Assembly: GCA_903893785.1 (NCBI GenBank) | Contig: CAITNQ010000314.1 | Location: forward strand, 947-64,946 | Reading direction: 5' to 3' | Length of the DNA: 64,000 nt | Source of the DNA: an uncultured Gemmatimonadota bacterium | GTDB taxonomy: Bacteria; Latescibacterota; UBA2968; UBA8231 | Shown: positions 6,593 to 19,111 of the stretch, piece by piece | Layout of the letters: the number at the start of each line of letters is the position of its first letter | How positions within the stretch are numbered: position 1 is the stretch's first letter | Translations under genes and position numbers: made by a program | The notes under the pieces: model-generated | Seen by the model: only the letters and a program-made list of their open reading frames with translations | The model's database searches: none | Told to the model about the DNA's origin: nothing

Positions 6593-9500
6593 TCAGTAGG
6601 CGACGGCGATCACCTGCAGACGCTCGACGCTGCCCTGGTCGGCGTCAACGCGCACGCGGCACAGGTACGCCCCGGGCGGCACCATCTTCCCCTGTCCGTC
6701 GCGGCCATCCCAAGAGAAGCTAACCTCACCACTGGCTGTCTGCGGCGCCGTCACTGACGCTTGACCCACGCGTTGGCCGCGCAGGTCGTAGATGGATACC
6801 TCCACCGACCGTTCGGCGAGCATACGGAGGAGCAGGAAGCGGCCCACCAGCACGTCGTTGACGCCATCGCCATTGGGGCTGAAGCACCGTGGCAGGGCCA
6901 GTTCCTGCACCGGCCCGGCGCCCGTCATCAGCAATCCCACCGCGGTGCTCCGGCTGTCAACCAGCTCAGTAGCATCCTGGCCACTGCCGTCGACCCGCTG
7001 GTACTGCCGGGTCACACTGGTGGACATGGCGGCGAAACCATCGATCTGGGCATTCTGCCGGTACACCTGTGACTCGAACCGGACCTCCACCAAGGCCTGC
7101 TTCTGCGCCGGCAAGCCCACGTTGAGGGCCGCCGGGAAACGCAGTTGGACCGTGTCGCCAGTGGCTGCCGTTGTCAGCGTCAGGCGCTGCCCAGCCGCGT
7201 CGATCAGGGCGCCGTCCGCCGCCGGAACAAAGCTGCGCTGCCAGCGCGTGCCGCTGACCTGCACACCGTCACTGCTGCCGCTGGCGCCAGCCGGTACGGT
7301 CACCTGCCCCACCCGCACAGCCAGGACCCGCAGCGGCTGCGGCGCGGCCACCACCAGTTCGTCGACCCCGGCGCGCACCTCAGGGTCAAGGGGATCGGGA
7401 CCGGCCAGTCGGACGAAGTACGAGAATTGCTCAGGCCGGGTGGGGTCCACCTCGCGCGGCACGCCGTAGTCACCCGGGTCCACGGCCAGATCGGCCAGCC
7501 CCCTGGCCTGCCCGTTGGTGGTTAACCGCGCCAGTTCGCCGGCCAATTCGAGCGCTACCGGCGGGATCAGCTGCACTGAGAGCGAACGCAGGCACGCCGT
7601 GGCCTGCGGATCATCGGACTGGATGCGGACCCGCAACTGCAGGAAGCGACGCGGGCTGGGTGACAACATCTGGGCGGTGTTAACGGCCTCGCGCCCGCGG
7701 TAGGGGTCGCTCCACTCGGACCAACCGACCAGCGCCAGCTTGCCCTCGCGCCACGGTGACGACTTAGGTTTCTTGCCTGACCCCAACTTCTTGCCGTCCT
7801 CGTCGATCTTGCCGTCGCCATCGTTGTCCACCAGGTCGATTTCGTCTTCGTCGACGCTGCCGTCGCCGTCGTCATCGACGCCGGTCTGGTGCGGTTTGGT
7901 CAGCGATGTCCAACGGTCCCACACGGCCCAGCGGAACACCAACGCGTCGTACACGTCCTTGGTCACCTCGGTGCGGGATTCCTGGCCCGAGATATCCACC
8001 ACCTCGTAATAGGTCCAGTTGGTGTCGGTCTGGTCAGCGGTGCGGCTCTGCAGCTGCAGGTCGACATCGGGATGCAGGGACAAGGGCTCCCGGTGCTCAC
8101 CCGCGACGCCGTCCGCCCCTTTGGCGTCCCGCACCACGGCTTCGCTCTCCCACCGCAGGCTGGGCATGGTCTTGCGGACGAACCGGCCCTGGGCGTCGGT
8201 TAAAGACATGGGCGGCGATTCAAGCGAAGCACTCACCGGGTACCCGGCGCCGTAGACCTGCAGTTCGGCCAGACGGGCGCCATCGGCGCCGCCGTACGAG
8301 GGGTTGTTGCGCAGCTGCAGGAAGCGCACCTGGCGCAGGGGGAACTGCTCGCCGAACATCAGCACGCGCGAAGTGCGATTGTCGATGTGGCCAGGCGCCA
8401 CAATGCTGTTCCAGCGCAGGCCGTACTCAAGCTGCTCGAAATCAGCCACTGTTTCCAGGTGCACCGGCCGCACCTGCGTACCGTCGGACACCATGATCTC
8501 GTGACCAGTGAAGGACTCGTACTCCGACGCCCGCTGGACCACCATGTACACCGAATTGACCCAGAACGTCGCGCCCAGATCGAGCCACAGCGTGCCACGG
8601 CGATTGAGCGGGTTCCAGCCCCAGGCCATCCACTCGGTGGCATACACGCCATCAGTGGCCTTCCATGGAGTGCCGCGCCCGCCCAGTTCGTACGAGCCGC
8701 CGGCACGCGCCTCGGGATTCAGGGCCAGGTTATCGCCCCGAGCCCAAACGCGAACCTCGAGGATTCGTGGCAGCTCGCGGGCGTAGTAGCGCACCGGACC
8801 GCGCTGGGTCGGGTCCACCTCGCCCATGAAGACGTCGCGGGTAACCTCCACCAGGTCGCCGCCGGCGGTGATGCGCTGATACACCACGGTTCCGCGGCGG
8901 GCGGGCGGCAGGGCCTCCCAGGCGGCCTGGCCCGCCGCATCCACGCCCAGCAGGCGCGCCCGGTCCAGGTCGCTGTCGAGCACCTTGACACGCAGGTACT
9001 GCAGCGACGACCCGGTCATGTCGGCCCGTCCATCCAGGTCGAAGTCGGCGCGCAGCAACGGCTCCGGCACCACGGTGAGCTGCCGGTAGGCAGCGCCCTC
9101 AGGACACGGCTGCAACTCGGTGCGGGTGGCGCGCGCTAACTGCACATAGCTGAGCGTGCGCCCGGACGGAAAGGGGTAGCGCTCCCCGAGGGAACCAAAT
9201 ACCACGAAGCTCTTGGGCGCATCGCCGGCCACGTCGGCCGGACCGGGGACGATGACCGCCAGGCTGTCCACCTGTACCAGGCGGCCCAGGTCCAGCTCAA
9301 GGTCCCACTGGCGAACGCCTTCGGGGGTCATGTCCGCCGCCGCCGGTTCCCACCAGGTGTCCAGTCGACCGTCAGCGGCCAGGGGTGCGGCGGCGCTGTT
9401 GGACTGTGCGATCACGCCTCCCGCAACGACGGTACCGCTGCGGATCTGGTCGTCGTAACGGTATTGCCCGGCGTCGAGGGCAGCGTTGACATTGCTGCGG

Positions 9501-9742
9501 AAGAAACGCGGGCGAACGCCCTGCGCGTCGATGTCGAACAGGGCCGAACTCGCCATGGGCACGCTGAGGGCGCTGACGACATCATTCTGGTTGGTCCAGG
9601 CCTGCCAGTGCTCACTGCGGTCGACGCGGATGGCGTCAGCGGTGATACGGTATCCGTCGCTGGCCCGCGACGGCCCGGCCGCGAACAGGCCCAGCAGCGC
9701 CAGGAAACGGGCGGCCGCCAGCCGGCCCACCGAATGGTTCAT
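6593..9742 (-). CDS. giant secreted protein C: discoidin-like segments, two DxDxDG loops, C-terminal FlgD-Ig-like tail
   Basis: 1049 aa. Signal peptide 'MNHSVGRLAAARFLALLGLFAAGPSRASD'. GGAGGG RBS 8 nt upstream. F5/8-type-C-like ends ('VRFLQLRNN...LAELQVYGAGYP'). The last ~95 aa read 'FSPNGDGVNDV...SFSWDGRDGQGKMVPPGAYLCRV'. Confidence 0.8.
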   Translation of the reverse strand: MNHSVGRLAAARFLALLGLFAAGPSRASDGYRITADAIRVDRSEHWQAWTNQNDVVSALSVPMASSALFDIDAQGVRPRFFRSNVNAALDAGQYRYDDQIRSGTVVAGGVIAQSNSAAAPLAADGRLDTWWEPAAADMTPEGVRQWDLELDLGRLVQVDSLAVIVPGPADVAGDAPKSFVVFGSLGERYPFPSGRTLSYVQLARATRTELQPCPEGAAYRQLTVVPEPLLRADFDLDGRADMTGSSLQYLRVKVLDSDLDRARLLGVDAAGQAAWEALPPARRGTVVYQRITAGGDLVEVTRDVFMGEVDPTQRGPVRYYARELPRILEVRVWARGDNLALNPEARAGGSYELGGRGTPWKATDGVYATEWMAWGWNPLNRRGTLWLDLGATFWVNSVYMVVQRASEYESFTGHEIMVSDGTQVRPVHLETVADFEQLEYGLRWNSIVAPGHIDNRTSRVLMFGEQFPLRQVRFLQLRNNPSYGGADGARLAELQVYGAGYPVSASLESPPMSLTDAQGRFVRKTMPSLRWESEAVVRDAKGADGVAGEHREPLSLHPDVDLQLQSRTADQTDTNWTYYEVVDISGQESRTEVTKDVYDALVFRWAVWDRWTSLTKPHQTGVDDDGDGSVDEDEIDLVDNDGDGKIDEDGKKLGSGKKPKSSPWREGKLALVGWSEWSDPYRGREAVNTAQMLSPSPRRFLQLRVRIQSDDPQATACLRSLSVQLIPPVALELAGELARLTTNGQARGLADLAVDPGDYGVPREVDPTRPEQFSYFVRLAGPDPLDPEVRAGVDELVVAAPQPLRVLAVRVGQVTVPAGASGSSDGVQVSGTRWQRSFVPAADGALIDAAGQRLTLTTAATGDTVQLRFPAALNVGLPAQKQALVEVRFESQVYRQNAQIDGFAAMSTSVTRQYQRVDGSGQDATELVDSRSTAVGLLMTGAGPVQELALPRCFSPNGDGVNDVLVGRFLLLRMLAERSVEVSIYDLRGQRVGQASVTAPQTASGEVSFSWDGRDGQGKMVPPGAYLCRVRVDADQGSVERLQVIAVAY
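7793..7876 (-). repeat. two DxDxDG calcium-loop-like repeats inside protein C
   Basis: Encodes 'DDDGDGSVDEDEIDLVDNDGDGKIDEDG'. Confidence 0.6.
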
Positions 9743-9777
9743 GGTCTAACCCTCCCCCGCTGGGTGCCGTGGAGGCG

Positions 9778-18965: not shown

Positions 18966-19102
18966 CGCTGCTTCCTTTCGTTCTGCAGAACCGGTCTGAT
19001 CTCCACCCGGCCCCCCACGGAGCCCGGTCCCCACAGATCGCTTGCCCTTGGTGCCTCCTAAGAGTGTACCGCCACCGGTGCACCGTATCCAGTCGGTAAT
19101 TA

Positions 19103-19111
19103 ACTATAGCA
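19103..19111 (-). promoter_or_regulatory. extended -10 promoter-like element (TGCTATAGT) in an AT-rich island
   Basis: The minus strand reads ...TTTCTATTATGCTATAGTTAATTACC... (19095-19125), the only markedly AT-rich stretch in this region. It lies ~140 nt upstream of the protein A start. Confidence 0.4.

What the first reader, a model, noticed from the sequence alone, without database searches (positions are those of the whole stretch)
6593..19111. 12.5-kb co-directional block: three giant Ca-loop / discoidin-like / FlgD-Ig-tailed secreted proteins interleaved with a sugar-modifying cassette
Seen in the sequence:
- Seven minus-strand genes run from an AT-rich extended -10 element (19103-19111) to a long hairpin (6520-6557).
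- Gaps between them are 35-95 nt, and one junction is a 1-nt overlap.
- Three of the genes (16290-18965, 9778-12501, 6593-9742) encode signal-peptide proteins of ~890-1050 aa.
- These three share DxDxDG arrays, segments ending like F5/8-type-C domains ('RFLQLR...LAELQVYG', 'RYLQFRIMFDS', 'RYVQFRLLFDS') and a ~90-aa C-terminal 'PNPF(S/T)PNGDG.ND ... WDGRD..G..(V/Q)PPG.Y' domain.
- I cannot assign the central ~500 aa of A/B to any family I know.

Inference: this is a dedicated cell-surface, calcium-dependent glycan-binding or adhesion apparatus, co-expressed with enzymes that could make or modify its sugar ligand.
Basis: partly seen in the sequence, partly recalled or inferred. Interest (0 to 1): 0.8.

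Follow-up and report, generated by a model that had tools for sequence, protein, structure and literature searches.

The report
Paralogous calcium-repeat, lectin-fold surface proteins
Three related giant secreted proteins of an uncultured Latescibacterota-type bacterium combine calcium-binding repeats, sugar-binding-type folds and a C-terminal export tag, and probably sit on the cell surface; the sugar-enzyme genes lying between them look like an unrelated local insertion.

Summary
The sequence observation is real. Seven co-directional minus-strand genes run from a conserved extended -10 promoter (19111-19103) to a strong hairpin (6557-6520).

A (16290-18965) and B (9778-12501) are full-length paralogs, 56% identical. 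C (6593-9742) is a distant paralog of both (hhalign E 5e-41 over 588 columns), not just a protein sharing their tail.

All three have a signal peptide, DxDxDG acidic repeats (eight in A and B, two in C), CBM32/discoidin-like and Ig-like beta-sandwiches in AlphaFold models, no catalytic fold, and a FlgD_ig/CHU_C (T9SS type-B-like) C-terminal domain.

The proposed link to the sugar cassette is not supported:
- None of 58 related genomic loci carries a cassette gene within 10 kb.
- The cassette enzymes appear to lack signal peptides.
- TIM1 orthologs occur elsewhere without A, B or C.

What is conserved is the B-C pair (12 of 12 B-clade genes). A-type orthologs normally sit beside a PorV/PorQ-like barrel, a TolQR-like pair, a 1080-aa TPR protein, DUF4159 and a PMT-type glycosyltransferase. 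None of these is in this window.

Best reading: conserved, calcium-stabilised, lectin-fold surface proteins exported through a C-terminal-domain-dependent route. This is a new protein family of a known kind, of moderate interest.

The parts
19103..19111 (-). Extended -10 promoter element TGcTATAGT for gene A, about 140 nt upstream of the start codon
   Evidence: Sequence read. AT-richest window upstream of A. Aligns with TTGAGA-N17-TATAAT upstream of A-type orthologs in L002, L009, L011, L013 and L016.
16290..18965 (-). Gene A, 891 aa. Signal peptide; conserved small beta unit (23-56); eight DxDxDG repeats (56-182); two jelly-roll domains (about 264-393 discoidin-like, about 441-595); Ig-like domains (about 600-790); FlgD_ig/CHU_C C-terminal domain (795-891).
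   Evidence: Groups in the A-type orthologous clade.
15546..16214 (-). DUF123 protein (209-222 aa). No sugar-enzyme annotation.
   Evidence: Pfam DUF123, E 2e-18. The DUF123-TIM1 pair recurs in L070 without A, B or C.
14689..15546 (-). TIM1: xylose-isomerase-like TIM-barrel enzyme (285 aa), no apparent signal peptide. Its start overlaps the DUF123 stop by 1 nt.
   Evidence: 77% identical homolog upstream of B in L069.
13535..14593 (-). Gfo/Idh/MocA NAD(P)-dependent sugar or inositol-type oxidoreductase (352 aa by the independent gene call). The Rossmann fold starts at the N-terminus.
12630..13430 (-). TIM2: second xylose-isomerase-like TIM-barrel enzyme (266 aa)
   Evidence: Pfam AP_endonuc_2, E 5e-34. 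Gene call.
9778..12501 (-). Gene B, 907 aa. Full-length paralog of A with the same architecture. Belongs to the B-type clade, which is always followed by a C-type gene.
   Evidence: 56% identity to A over 908 columns..
6593..9742 (-). Gene C, 1049 aa. Signal peptide; extra N-terminal discoidin-like region (about 30-335); discoidin-like domain (353-500); second jelly-roll with an inserted helix and two DxDxDG repeats (623-650); Ig-like domains; FlgD_ig/CHU_C C-terminal domain (950-1049).
   Evidence: Profile-profile homology to the A family, E 4.9e-41.
6520..6557 (-). Terminator-like hairpin after C (11-bp GC-rich stem, no U-tract)
   Evidence: z = -4.4.
12574..12590 (-). Approximate position of the conserved GGTTGACAA (-35-like) element upstream of B; a possible separate promoter for B-C
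   Evidence: Conserved between the window and L069 in the alignment. Only two sequences were compared, so this is weak.

Best explanation
A, B and C are three paralogs of one protein family. Almost all identified homologs come from MAGs labelled Candidatus Latescibacterota; a minority carry Gemmatimonadota/-aceae or other labels.

Proposed mechanism:
1. Each protein is exported by Sec through an N-terminal signal peptide.
2. It crosses or is anchored at the outer membrane through a C-terminal Ig-like domain of the T9SS type-B (CHU_C / FlgD_ig) kind.
3. It is displayed on the cell surface.
4. There, CBM32/discoidin-like jelly-rolls and Ig-like domains form a rigid non-catalytic body. DxDxDG acidic loops bind calcium and stiffen or cross-link it.
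5. B and C are a conserved two-gene unit and probably act together. A is the ortholog of a gene that normally sits beside a PorV/PorQ/PorP-like outer-membrane barrel and other envelope genes.
6. The DUF123-TIM-Gfo-TIM block between A and B is an independent cytoplasmic sugar or inositol catabolic module. It landed there in this lineage and is not part of the apparatus.

Shown here: paralogy, domain content, predicted folds, synteny and promoter conservation. Inferred: surface location, calcium binding, glycan binding, a T9SS-like route and B-C cooperation.
For: Paralogy.
- A and B are 56% identical over their full length.
- The A-family and C-family profiles align with 100% probability, E 4.9e-41, over 588 columns: A 264-891 with C 353-1049.

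Architecture.
- The AF2 model of A has pLDDT 80.7 and pTM 0.75, is all-beta from residue 194, and has a disordered acidic array.
- The AF2 model of C has pLDDT 78.
- Foldseek against PDB gives only domain-level matches, with no catalytic fold: CBM32 (4a44, 2v72, 4a42; target-normalised TM 0.61-0.78), neuropilin b1b2, factor V/VIII C domains, F-lectin, galactose oxidase, Ig-like arrays and PorU.

C-terminal domain.
- FlgD_ig is above the gathering score in all three and CHU_C above it in A.
- All three match the C-terminal domain region of PorU at E 1e-6 to 4e-5.
- The tail opens with PNPF(S/T)PNGDGxND in A and B (FSPNGDGVND in C). From memory, this resembles the start of type-B CTDs.

Synteny.
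- The NJ tree separates an A clade and a B clade.
- All 12 B-clade genes are followed by a C gene.
- 24 of 30 A-clade genes are followed by a PMT_2/TPR glycosyltransferase.
- 15 loci carry a PorV/PorQ-family barrel: NF033709 at 78.7 bits, E 6e-22, and PorP/SprF at E 8e-12.

Cassette independence.

Promoter upstream of A is conserved across lineages.
Against: - No T9SS core gene and no PorV/PorP-like gene lies in the 64-kb window. Whether this genome has a T9SS could not be checked.
- NCBIfam type-A and type-B CTD models score below their cut-offs: 21.5 against 35, and 20 against 23.
- CHU_C is below the gathering score for B and C.
- No HMM supports TSP3 or EF-hand repeats, so calcium binding rests on the motif alone.
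- F5_F8_type_C is sub-threshold, and ligand-binding residues were not examined.
- Ortholog lengths are nearly constant (about 884-891 aa) and identity is about 55% across lineages. This fits a structural or machinery component at least as well as an adhesin.
- The nearest relative keeps TIM1 upstream of B, so some lineage-specific co-regulation cannot be excluded.
- Operon structure is untested. Only the hairpin after TIM1 (z = -3.7) and the one after C stand out.
Confidence: 0.55

Rival explanations
1. The seven genes are one dedicated operon in which the TIM-barrel and Gfo enzymes make or modify the sugar ligand of the three surface proteins. A PUL-like variant has the surface binders capturing a glycan that the cassette then catabolises.
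For: - The seven genes are co-directional with short gaps and one 1-nt overlap.
- Only one clearly conserved promoter was found, upstream of A, and one strong terminator-like hairpin, after C.
- The same seven-gene order occurs in same-species contigs.
- A TIM1 homolog is still upstream of B in L069.
- The window is rich in glycan-catabolic genes: GH3, GH95, 3-keto-disaccharide hydrolase and MFS transporters.
Against: - None of 58 related loci has any cassette gene within 10 kb.
- In complete genomes A and B-C are megabases apart and are flanked by envelope or housekeeping genes.
- The enzymes appear to lack signal peptides.
- TIM1 orthologs occur without A, B or C.
- Cassette composition differs even in the nearest relative.
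- A conserved TTGACA upstream of B hints at separate transcription.
Confidence: 0.1
2. A, B and C are structural envelope proteins, subunits of a calcium-dependent S-layer-like or sheath lattice, rather than ligand-binding adhesins. The lectin-like folds would serve as lattice or LPS contacts.
For: - Ortholog length is nearly constant and about 55% identity holds over the full length across many genomes.
- A-type and B-C genes are usually present once per complete genome.
- Neighbours elsewhere are envelope-biogenesis genes: a PMT-type glycosyltransferase, a PpiC rotamase, TolQR-like proteins and a YbgF/BamD-like TPR protein.
- An archaeal S-layer protein (7ptp) is among the top fold matches.
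- Acidic calcium repeats are typical of calcium-dependent lattices (general knowledge).
Against: - The fold matches are generic beta-sandwich arrays with whole-protein TM scores of only about 0.1.
- No S-layer homology or SLH-type anchor was detected.
- Nothing indicates abundance or expression level.
Confidence: 0.22
3. A, B and C are mobile gliding-type adhesins, analogous to SprB/RemA, or cargo-attachment components analogous to PorZ/PorU. They would act in a T9SS-related machine powered in Latescibacterota by the neighbouring TolQR-like pair.
For: - The C-terminal domain is type-B-like, and the PorU C-terminal domain matches it.
- In up to 15 related loci, A-type orthologs sit next to a PorV/PorQ/PorP-family barrel; 11-12 of these also carry ExbB/TolQ-ExbD/TolR, a 1080-aa TPR protein with partial PorW/SprE similarity, and DUF4159.
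Against: - None of these partner genes is in this window.
- The TPR hits are promiscuous.
- No GldK/L/M/N or SprA was seen in any fetched locus. This was not searched systematically.
- SprB-type adhesins are much larger and more variable (general knowledge).
Confidence: 0.12

Closest known systems
T9SS type-B CTD cargo of Bacteroidota (CHU_C / TIGR04131; for example Flavobacterium SprB, Cytophaga CHU proteins)
   Same: - An N-terminal signal peptide and a multi-domain beta-rich body.
- A C-terminal domain of about 90 aa that opens with PNxF(S/T)PNGDGxND in A and B and carries a WDGxD...G...PPGxY core in all three.
- CHU_C scores above the gathering score for A.
- A PorV/PorQ/PorP-family barrel is encoded beside the A-type orthologs.
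   Different: - The phylum is different (Latescibacterota).
- The NCBIfam CTD models score below their cut-offs.
- No PorP/SprF gene is adjacent in this window.
- The body (A residues 191-796) matches no Pfam family.
- Protein length is fixed and sequence is highly conserved, unlike the variable giant adhesins.
CBM32 / discoidin (F5/8 type C) domain proteins, such as Clostridium perfringens NanJ, GH89 and ZmpB CBM32 modules and neuropilin b1b2
   Same: The jelly-roll fold is predicted with good confidence. Foldseek target-normalised TM is 0.61-0.78 for single CBM32 modules and 0.46 for the tandem b1b2. Strand-end motifs such as RFLQLR...AELQVYG are present.
   Different: - The HMM score is below the Pfam threshold in C and absent in A and B.
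- The modules are not appended to any enzyme.
- Sugar-binding residues were not assessed.
Thrombospondin type-3 / bacterial TSP3-like calcium repeats (DxDxDGxxDxxD)
   Same: The motif and its acidic composition match, and the repeats are tandem with a 16-17-residue period.
   Different: No hit to Pfam TSP_3 or any other repeat model, even at E up to 10. The array is an N-terminal loop in A and B but is inserted inside a jelly-roll in C.
PorZ/PorU-PorQ/PorV attachment complex of Porphyromonas gingivalis
   Same: Both involve conserved, single-copy, CTD-bearing surface proteins paired with PorV/PorQ-family barrels. The C-terminal domains of A, B and C match the C-terminal domain region of PorU.
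   Different: No peptidase (PorU) or beta-propeller (PorZ) domain is present. The partnership is inferred only from gene adjacency in other genomes.

Membership tests
T9SS cargo with type-B C-terminal domain (CHU_C PF13585 / TIGR04131) | A C-terminal domain of about 80-100 aa scoring above the curated HMM threshold | tested here: inconclusive
   Pfam CHU_C: A 33.0 bits (cut-off 27, full profile coverage 4-85 of 86), B 23.9, C 26.9. NCBIfam TIGR04131: 21.5 and 16.8 bits against cut-off 35. TIGR04183: 20 against 23.
T9SS cargo with type-B C-terminal domain (CHU_C PF13585 / TIGR04131) | An N-terminal Sec signal peptide | tested here: met
   Basic n-region, hydrophobic h-region and AxA-like site in A, B and C. 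The N-terminal pattern is shared by the family consensus. Judged by eye; no dedicated predictor was available.
T9SS cargo with type-B C-terminal domain (CHU_C PF13585 / TIGR04131) | A cognate PorP/SprF-like outer-membrane protein encoded nearby | tested here: not met
   No PorV/PorP/PorQ-like gene in the 64-kb window (tblastn at E 1e-2; Pfam scans). In 15 related loci a PorV/PorQ-family gene lies within about 3 kb of the A ortholog.
T9SS cargo with type-B C-terminal domain (CHU_C PF13585 / TIGR04131) | T9SS core machinery (SprA/Sov, PorK/L/M/N, PorV, PorU) present in the same genome | not testable with these tools
F5/8 type C (discoidin) / CBM32 | HMM score above Pfam's gathering threshold | tested here: not met
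   C: 26.5 bits against 28.2. A and B: no hit, even on isolated segments at E up to 10.
F5/8 type C (discoidin) / CBM32 | Galactose-binding-domain-like jelly-roll fold | tested here: met
   AF2 models with pLDDT of about 85-95 in these regions. Foldseek hits to 4a44, 4a41, 2v72 and 4a42 (target-normalised TM 0.61-0.78) and to neuropilin b1b2 (0.46).
F5/8 type C (discoidin) / CBM32 | A conserved carbohydrate or ligand-binding site | not tested
   Model coordinates could not be inspected residue by residue.
Thrombospondin type-3 calcium-binding repeat (PF02412 / bacterial TSP3) | HMM match | tested here: not met
   No Pfam family hit for the 140-aa array at E up to 10.
Thrombospondin type-3 calcium-binding repeat (PF02412 / bacterial TSP3) | Tandem DxDxDGxxDxxD motifs | tested here: met
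   Seven exact D.D.DG motifs in A and eight in B (eight repeats in each under the relaxed D/N, G/A pattern), followed by (D/N)ED; two in C.
FlgD flagellar hook-cap protein | An N-terminal FlgD domain plus a flagellar gene context | tested here: not met
   Only the Ig-like domain matches: PF13860 and PDB 3osv at E 9e-8 over about 75 residues. FlgD equivalog models score 17-33 bits against cut-offs of 230-383. No flagellar genes are nearby.
   None of 58 loci carries a cassette gene. Only TIM1 is retained, in L069. TIM1 occurs elsewhere without A, B or C.

The most novel reading that the evidence does not exclude
A, B and C may be the cargo or surface components of an undescribed envelope machine found mainly in Latescibacterota.

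Its other parts are encoded next to their orthologs in other genomes:
- a PorV/PorQ/PorP-like barrel;
- a TolQ/TolR-like proton-motive pair;
- a 1080-aa protein with 11 YbgF/BamD-like TPR stretches;
- DUF4159;
- a PMT_2/TPR protein glycosyltransferase;
- FG-GAP/ASPIC proteins;
- a PpiC rotamase;
- an SGNH-like 672-aa protein;
- unannotated 912-aa, about 250-aa and about 310-aa proteins.

This would be a non-Bacteroidota relative of the T9SS attachment or gliding apparatus, driven by a different motor. The conserved B-C heteropair would be its lectin-like outer element.
Probability: 0.2. Interest if true: 0.7.

Novelty: new member of a known kind. Interest (0 to 1): 0.4.

Why it matters
Latescibacterota is an uncultured phylum. 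Its cell surface is little described: four literature searches on Latescibacteria together with T9SS or gliding motility returned nothing relevant.

- The family is conserved, and about 600 residues of A and B are not covered by any Pfam model. In complete genomes A-type and B-C genes usually occur once each. This makes the family a good handle on how these bacteria build or decorate their outer surface.
- The work separates a real conserved unit (the B-C pair, and A with its envelope neighbourhood) from a coincidental neighbour (the sugar cassette). That prevents a wrong operon-level annotation.
- If the link between a PorV-like barrel and a TolQR-like pair is real, it bears on how CTD-dependent secretion or attachment works outside Bacteroidota.

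Tried and rejected
- Pfam and NCBIfam on whole proteins and on isolated central segments of A and C found no family for A 191-796 or for the acidic array.
- PDB sequence search matched only the FlgD Ig domain.
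- Rfam and tRNA scans of the window found nothing.
- The sigma-70 and terminator consensus scan gave counts at the level of shuffles and missed the extended -10, because there is no -35.
- Exact look-up of A in the contig index was not on record. It was solved through a cluster member.
- Cluster-member names gave no organism.
- Four literature searches on Latescibacteria together with T9SS or gliding returned nothing relevant. Two further searches, on FlgD_ig C-terminal domains and on PF13860/T9SS, found nothing linking this domain to such proteins. The Youssef 2015 paper mentions gliding only in connection with algal EPS.
- The 912-aa neighbour family is not related to the C family (hhalign probability 0.3%).
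- Catalytic roles (peptidase, glycosidase) for A, B and C were rejected: no catalytic fold appears among the Foldseek hits, only carbohydrate-binding and Ig modules of such enzymes.
- A flagellar FlgD role was rejected.
- Intergenic hairpins after A and after TIM2 are not more stable than shuffles, so they neither support nor refute internal termination.

Full report
**1. What is there**

The window is 65-71% GC throughout. Between 19111 and 6520, seven genes lie on the minus strand:
- A, 16290-18965, 891 aa.
- A DUF123 protein, 15546-16214.
- TIM1, a xylose-isomerase-like TIM barrel, 14689-15546.
- A Gfo/Idh/MocA oxidoreductase, 13535 to about 14593.
- TIM2, a second TIM barrel, 12630-13430.
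- B, 9778-12501, 907 aa.
- C, 6593-9742, 1049 aa.

Pfam confirms the enzyme families and places FlgD_ig plus CHU_C at the C-terminus of A, B and C. An independent gene call on a same-species contig gives the same seven genes. Its gaps are 114, -1, 95, 104, 128 and 35 nt, with an HDOD gene upstream.

**2. The three large proteins are one family**

A and B are 56% identical end to end. By BLAST, C shares only the tail and a short acidic motif with A. A profile-profile comparison of the two families, however, gives 100% probability and E 4.9e-41 over 588 columns, aligning A 264-891 with C 353-1049. C is therefore a distant paralog with an extra N-terminal region of about 350 aa.

The acidic array differs in placement:
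- In A and B it is eight repeats with a 16-17-residue period at the N-terminus.
- In C it is two repeats inserted inside the second jelly-roll.

**3. Folds**

- The AF2 model of A has pLDDT 80.7 and pTM 0.75. It shows a signal-peptide helix, a small conserved beta unit (23-56), a disordered acidic array (57-190), and then only beta structure to the end.
- The AF2 model of C has pLDDT 78 and is likewise beta-rich.
- Foldseek against PDB returns domain-level matches only: CBM32 modules (target-normalised TM 0.61-0.78), tandem discoidin domains of neuropilin and factors V/VIII, F-lectin, the lectin domain of galactose oxidase, Ig-like arrays and PorU. No catalytic fold appears.
- No Pfam model covers A 191-796 or the acidic array, even at E up to 10.

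**4. The C-terminal domain**

- FlgD_ig passes its threshold in all three. CHU_C passes in A and narrowly fails in B and C.
- The NCBIfam type-A and type-B sorting-domain models are below their cut-offs. All three tails match the C-terminal domain portion of the PorU sortase model.
- FlgD equivalog models fail by a wide margin, so these are not flagellar proteins.
- T9SS is described as a system of the FCB superphylum (abstract of PMC12421860, seen). Latescibacteria belong to that superphylum (abstract of PMC4454575).

**5. Who else has them**

- A has 312 homologs at E<=1e-5 in the first protein search. All are unnamed or hypothetical, and the few named sources are Gemmatimonadota or Latescibacteria MAGs.
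- C has 37 homologs.
- The A core (191-796) finds only 208 representative clusters among 1.84 billion proteins. Many of these share only the module at A 441-655.
- A scan of GTDB representative genomes returned 61 loci, most from Candidatus Latescibacterota MAGs; a minority are labelled Gemmatimonadota/-aceae.

**6. Synteny**

tblastn of window genes and of neighbour genes against all fetched loci, together with an NJ tree, shows two orthologous clades.

- The B clade contains window B. All 12 of its genes are followed directly by a C-type gene, 4-60 nt away. In the other genomes where the surroundings were annotated, the pair is flanked by housekeeping genes such as OTCase, DHH, MoaC and isocitrate dehydrogenase.
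- The A clade contains window A. In 24 of 30 genes it is followed by a PMT_2/TPR glycosyltransferase, then TPR proteins and FG-GAP/ASPIC proteins.
- In up to 15 loci the A-clade gene is preceded divergently by proteins of about 330, 250 and 311 aa; 11-12 of these loci also show a 1080-aa TPR protein, ExbB, ExbD and DUF4159.
- NCBIfam identifies the 311-aa protein as PorV/PorQ family (78.7 bits, cut-off 90, E 6e-22) with a PorP/SprF match. The TPR giant contains 11 YbgF/CpoB-like stretches with BamD-like and partial PorW/SprE similarity. The ExbB/ExbD pair is closest to TolQ/TolR.
- In some lineages everything is merged into one locus. L058 has a B-like gene, C, a 912-aa gene, a rotamase, an A/B-like gene, the 331-, 248- and 311-aa genes, the TPR gene, ExbB, ExbD and DUF4159.
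- In complete genomes, A and B-C are megabases apart. In OZ244561.1 they lie at 0.47 Mb and 3.89 Mb.
- None of these partner genes is in the 64-kb window.

**7. The cassette**

- No homolog of DUF123, TIM1, Gfo or TIM2 lies within 10 kb of an A-family gene in any of the 58 genome loci at E<=1e-6.
- The three enzymes appear to have no signal peptide.
- TIM1 is a widespread, well-conserved enzyme, 62-76% identical in many Latescibacterota, Gemmatimonadota and even Chloroflexota.
- In L070 it forms the same overlapping DUF123-TIM1 pair next to URO-D. In L071 it sits among Gfo, peptidase and racemase genes. Neither locus has A, B or C.
- The nearest relative is L069 (C 66% identical). It has a TIM1 homolog (77%) directly upstream of B, then C, then the same convergent Gfo and MFS genes as the window. 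Gfo and TIM2 are not between TIM1 and B.

The juxtaposition is therefore lineage-specific and variable. The window as a whole is rich in sugar-catabolic genes. That makes a chance neighbourhood likely.

**8. Transcription signals**

- The extended -10 upstream of A aligns with TTGAGA-N17-TATAAT in five distant A-type loci. This is good evidence for a real promoter with a 5' UTR of about 130-150 nt.
- Upstream of B, GGTTGACAA is conserved between the window and L069. Only two sequences were compared, at 74% overall identity.
- Among internal intergenic regions, only the hairpin after TIM1 is unusually stable (z = -3.7).
- Operon structure remains open.

**9. Interpretation**

The best-supported reading is that A, B and C are conserved, non-enzymatic, calcium-repeat, lectin-fold proteins. 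They would be exported by Sec and a CTD-dependent outer-membrane route and displayed on the surface. B-C is a functional pair, and A is the relocated ortholog of a gene that usually sits in an envelope gene neighbourhood.

Rivals, in order:
1. An S-layer-like structural lattice. Constant length and high conservation favour it.
2. A gliding or attachment-complex component tied to the PorV-like/TolQR-like cluster.

**10. Novelty**

This is a new protein family of a known kind: CTD-tagged, multi-beta-sandwich surface proteins of the FCB superphylum. The most novel reading not excluded is a Latescibacterota-associated envelope machine, of which these proteins would be the outer components.

Noticed in passing
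L001 1079-9637; L002; L009; L011; L013; L016; L051; L058 13053-21726: A conserved cluster lies next to A-type orthologs in other genomes. It encodes a CBM9-like protein of about 330 aa, a protein of about 250 aa, a PorV/PorQ/PorP-like 311-aa barrel, a 1080-aa protein with 11 YbgF/BamD-like TPR stretches, a TolQ-like ExbB, a TolR-like ExbD and DUF4159. It is absent from this window and no library names it as a system.
   Followed up: partly
L006 13399-20706; L018; L025; L030; L054; L058; L063: C-type genes are often followed by an unannotated 912-aa protein (no Pfam or NCBIfam hit, unrelated to C by hhalign), a protein of about 257 aa, a PpiC-type rotamase and a 672-aa GDSL/SGNH-like protein.
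   Followed up: partly
window 15546-16214 and 14689-15546; L070 5121-6679: DUF123 and TIM1 form an overlapping gene pair both in the window and in an unrelated Latescibacterota MAG. This suggests the two are themselves a conserved unit of unknown function.
   Followed up: partly
L010 6932-9760 and 9875-12652: One complete genome (OZ244561.1) carries two tandem A-type copies. OZ220721.1 has an extra isolated A-like copy (L033).
   Followed up: no
L012, L028, L034, L039, L047 (about 700-9800, minus strand): Some lineages have a divergent array of shorter proteins (about 630-900 aa) upstream of the A-type gene. These share only the module at A 441-655 and the C-terminal domain with A, B and C. 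About 100 representative clusters of this shorter kind exist.
   Followed up: partly
window 21340-23280 (+): A 646-aa ORF with coding-type GC3 has no Pfam hit. Its C-terminal half contains an HX4D-like motif (HQSLLDH), as in glycerolipid acyltransferases.
   Followed up: no
window 5299-6498 (+), 29693-30754 (+), 47428-48168 (-), 48126-50543 (-), 51687-53987 (-): The window is dense in sugar-oxidation and glycoside-cleavage genes: two further Gfo/Idh/MocA genes (one GH109-like), a 3-keto-disaccharide hydrolase, GH3 and GH95. This is consistent with an oxidative glycoside-catabolism lifestyle and makes the A-B cassette one of several such modules.
   Followed up: partly
window 18966-19734: An unusually long non-coding gap of about 770 nt lies between the HDOD gene and A. 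It holds the conserved promoter, and A has a predicted 5' UTR of about 130-150 nt. There is no Rfam hit.
   Followed up: partly
window 16290-18965, N-terminus of A: The signal peptide of A contains an L-A-A-C lipobox-like motif (residues 12-15). It is not conserved in the family consensus, so lipidation may be specific to this lineage or coincidental.
   Followed up: no
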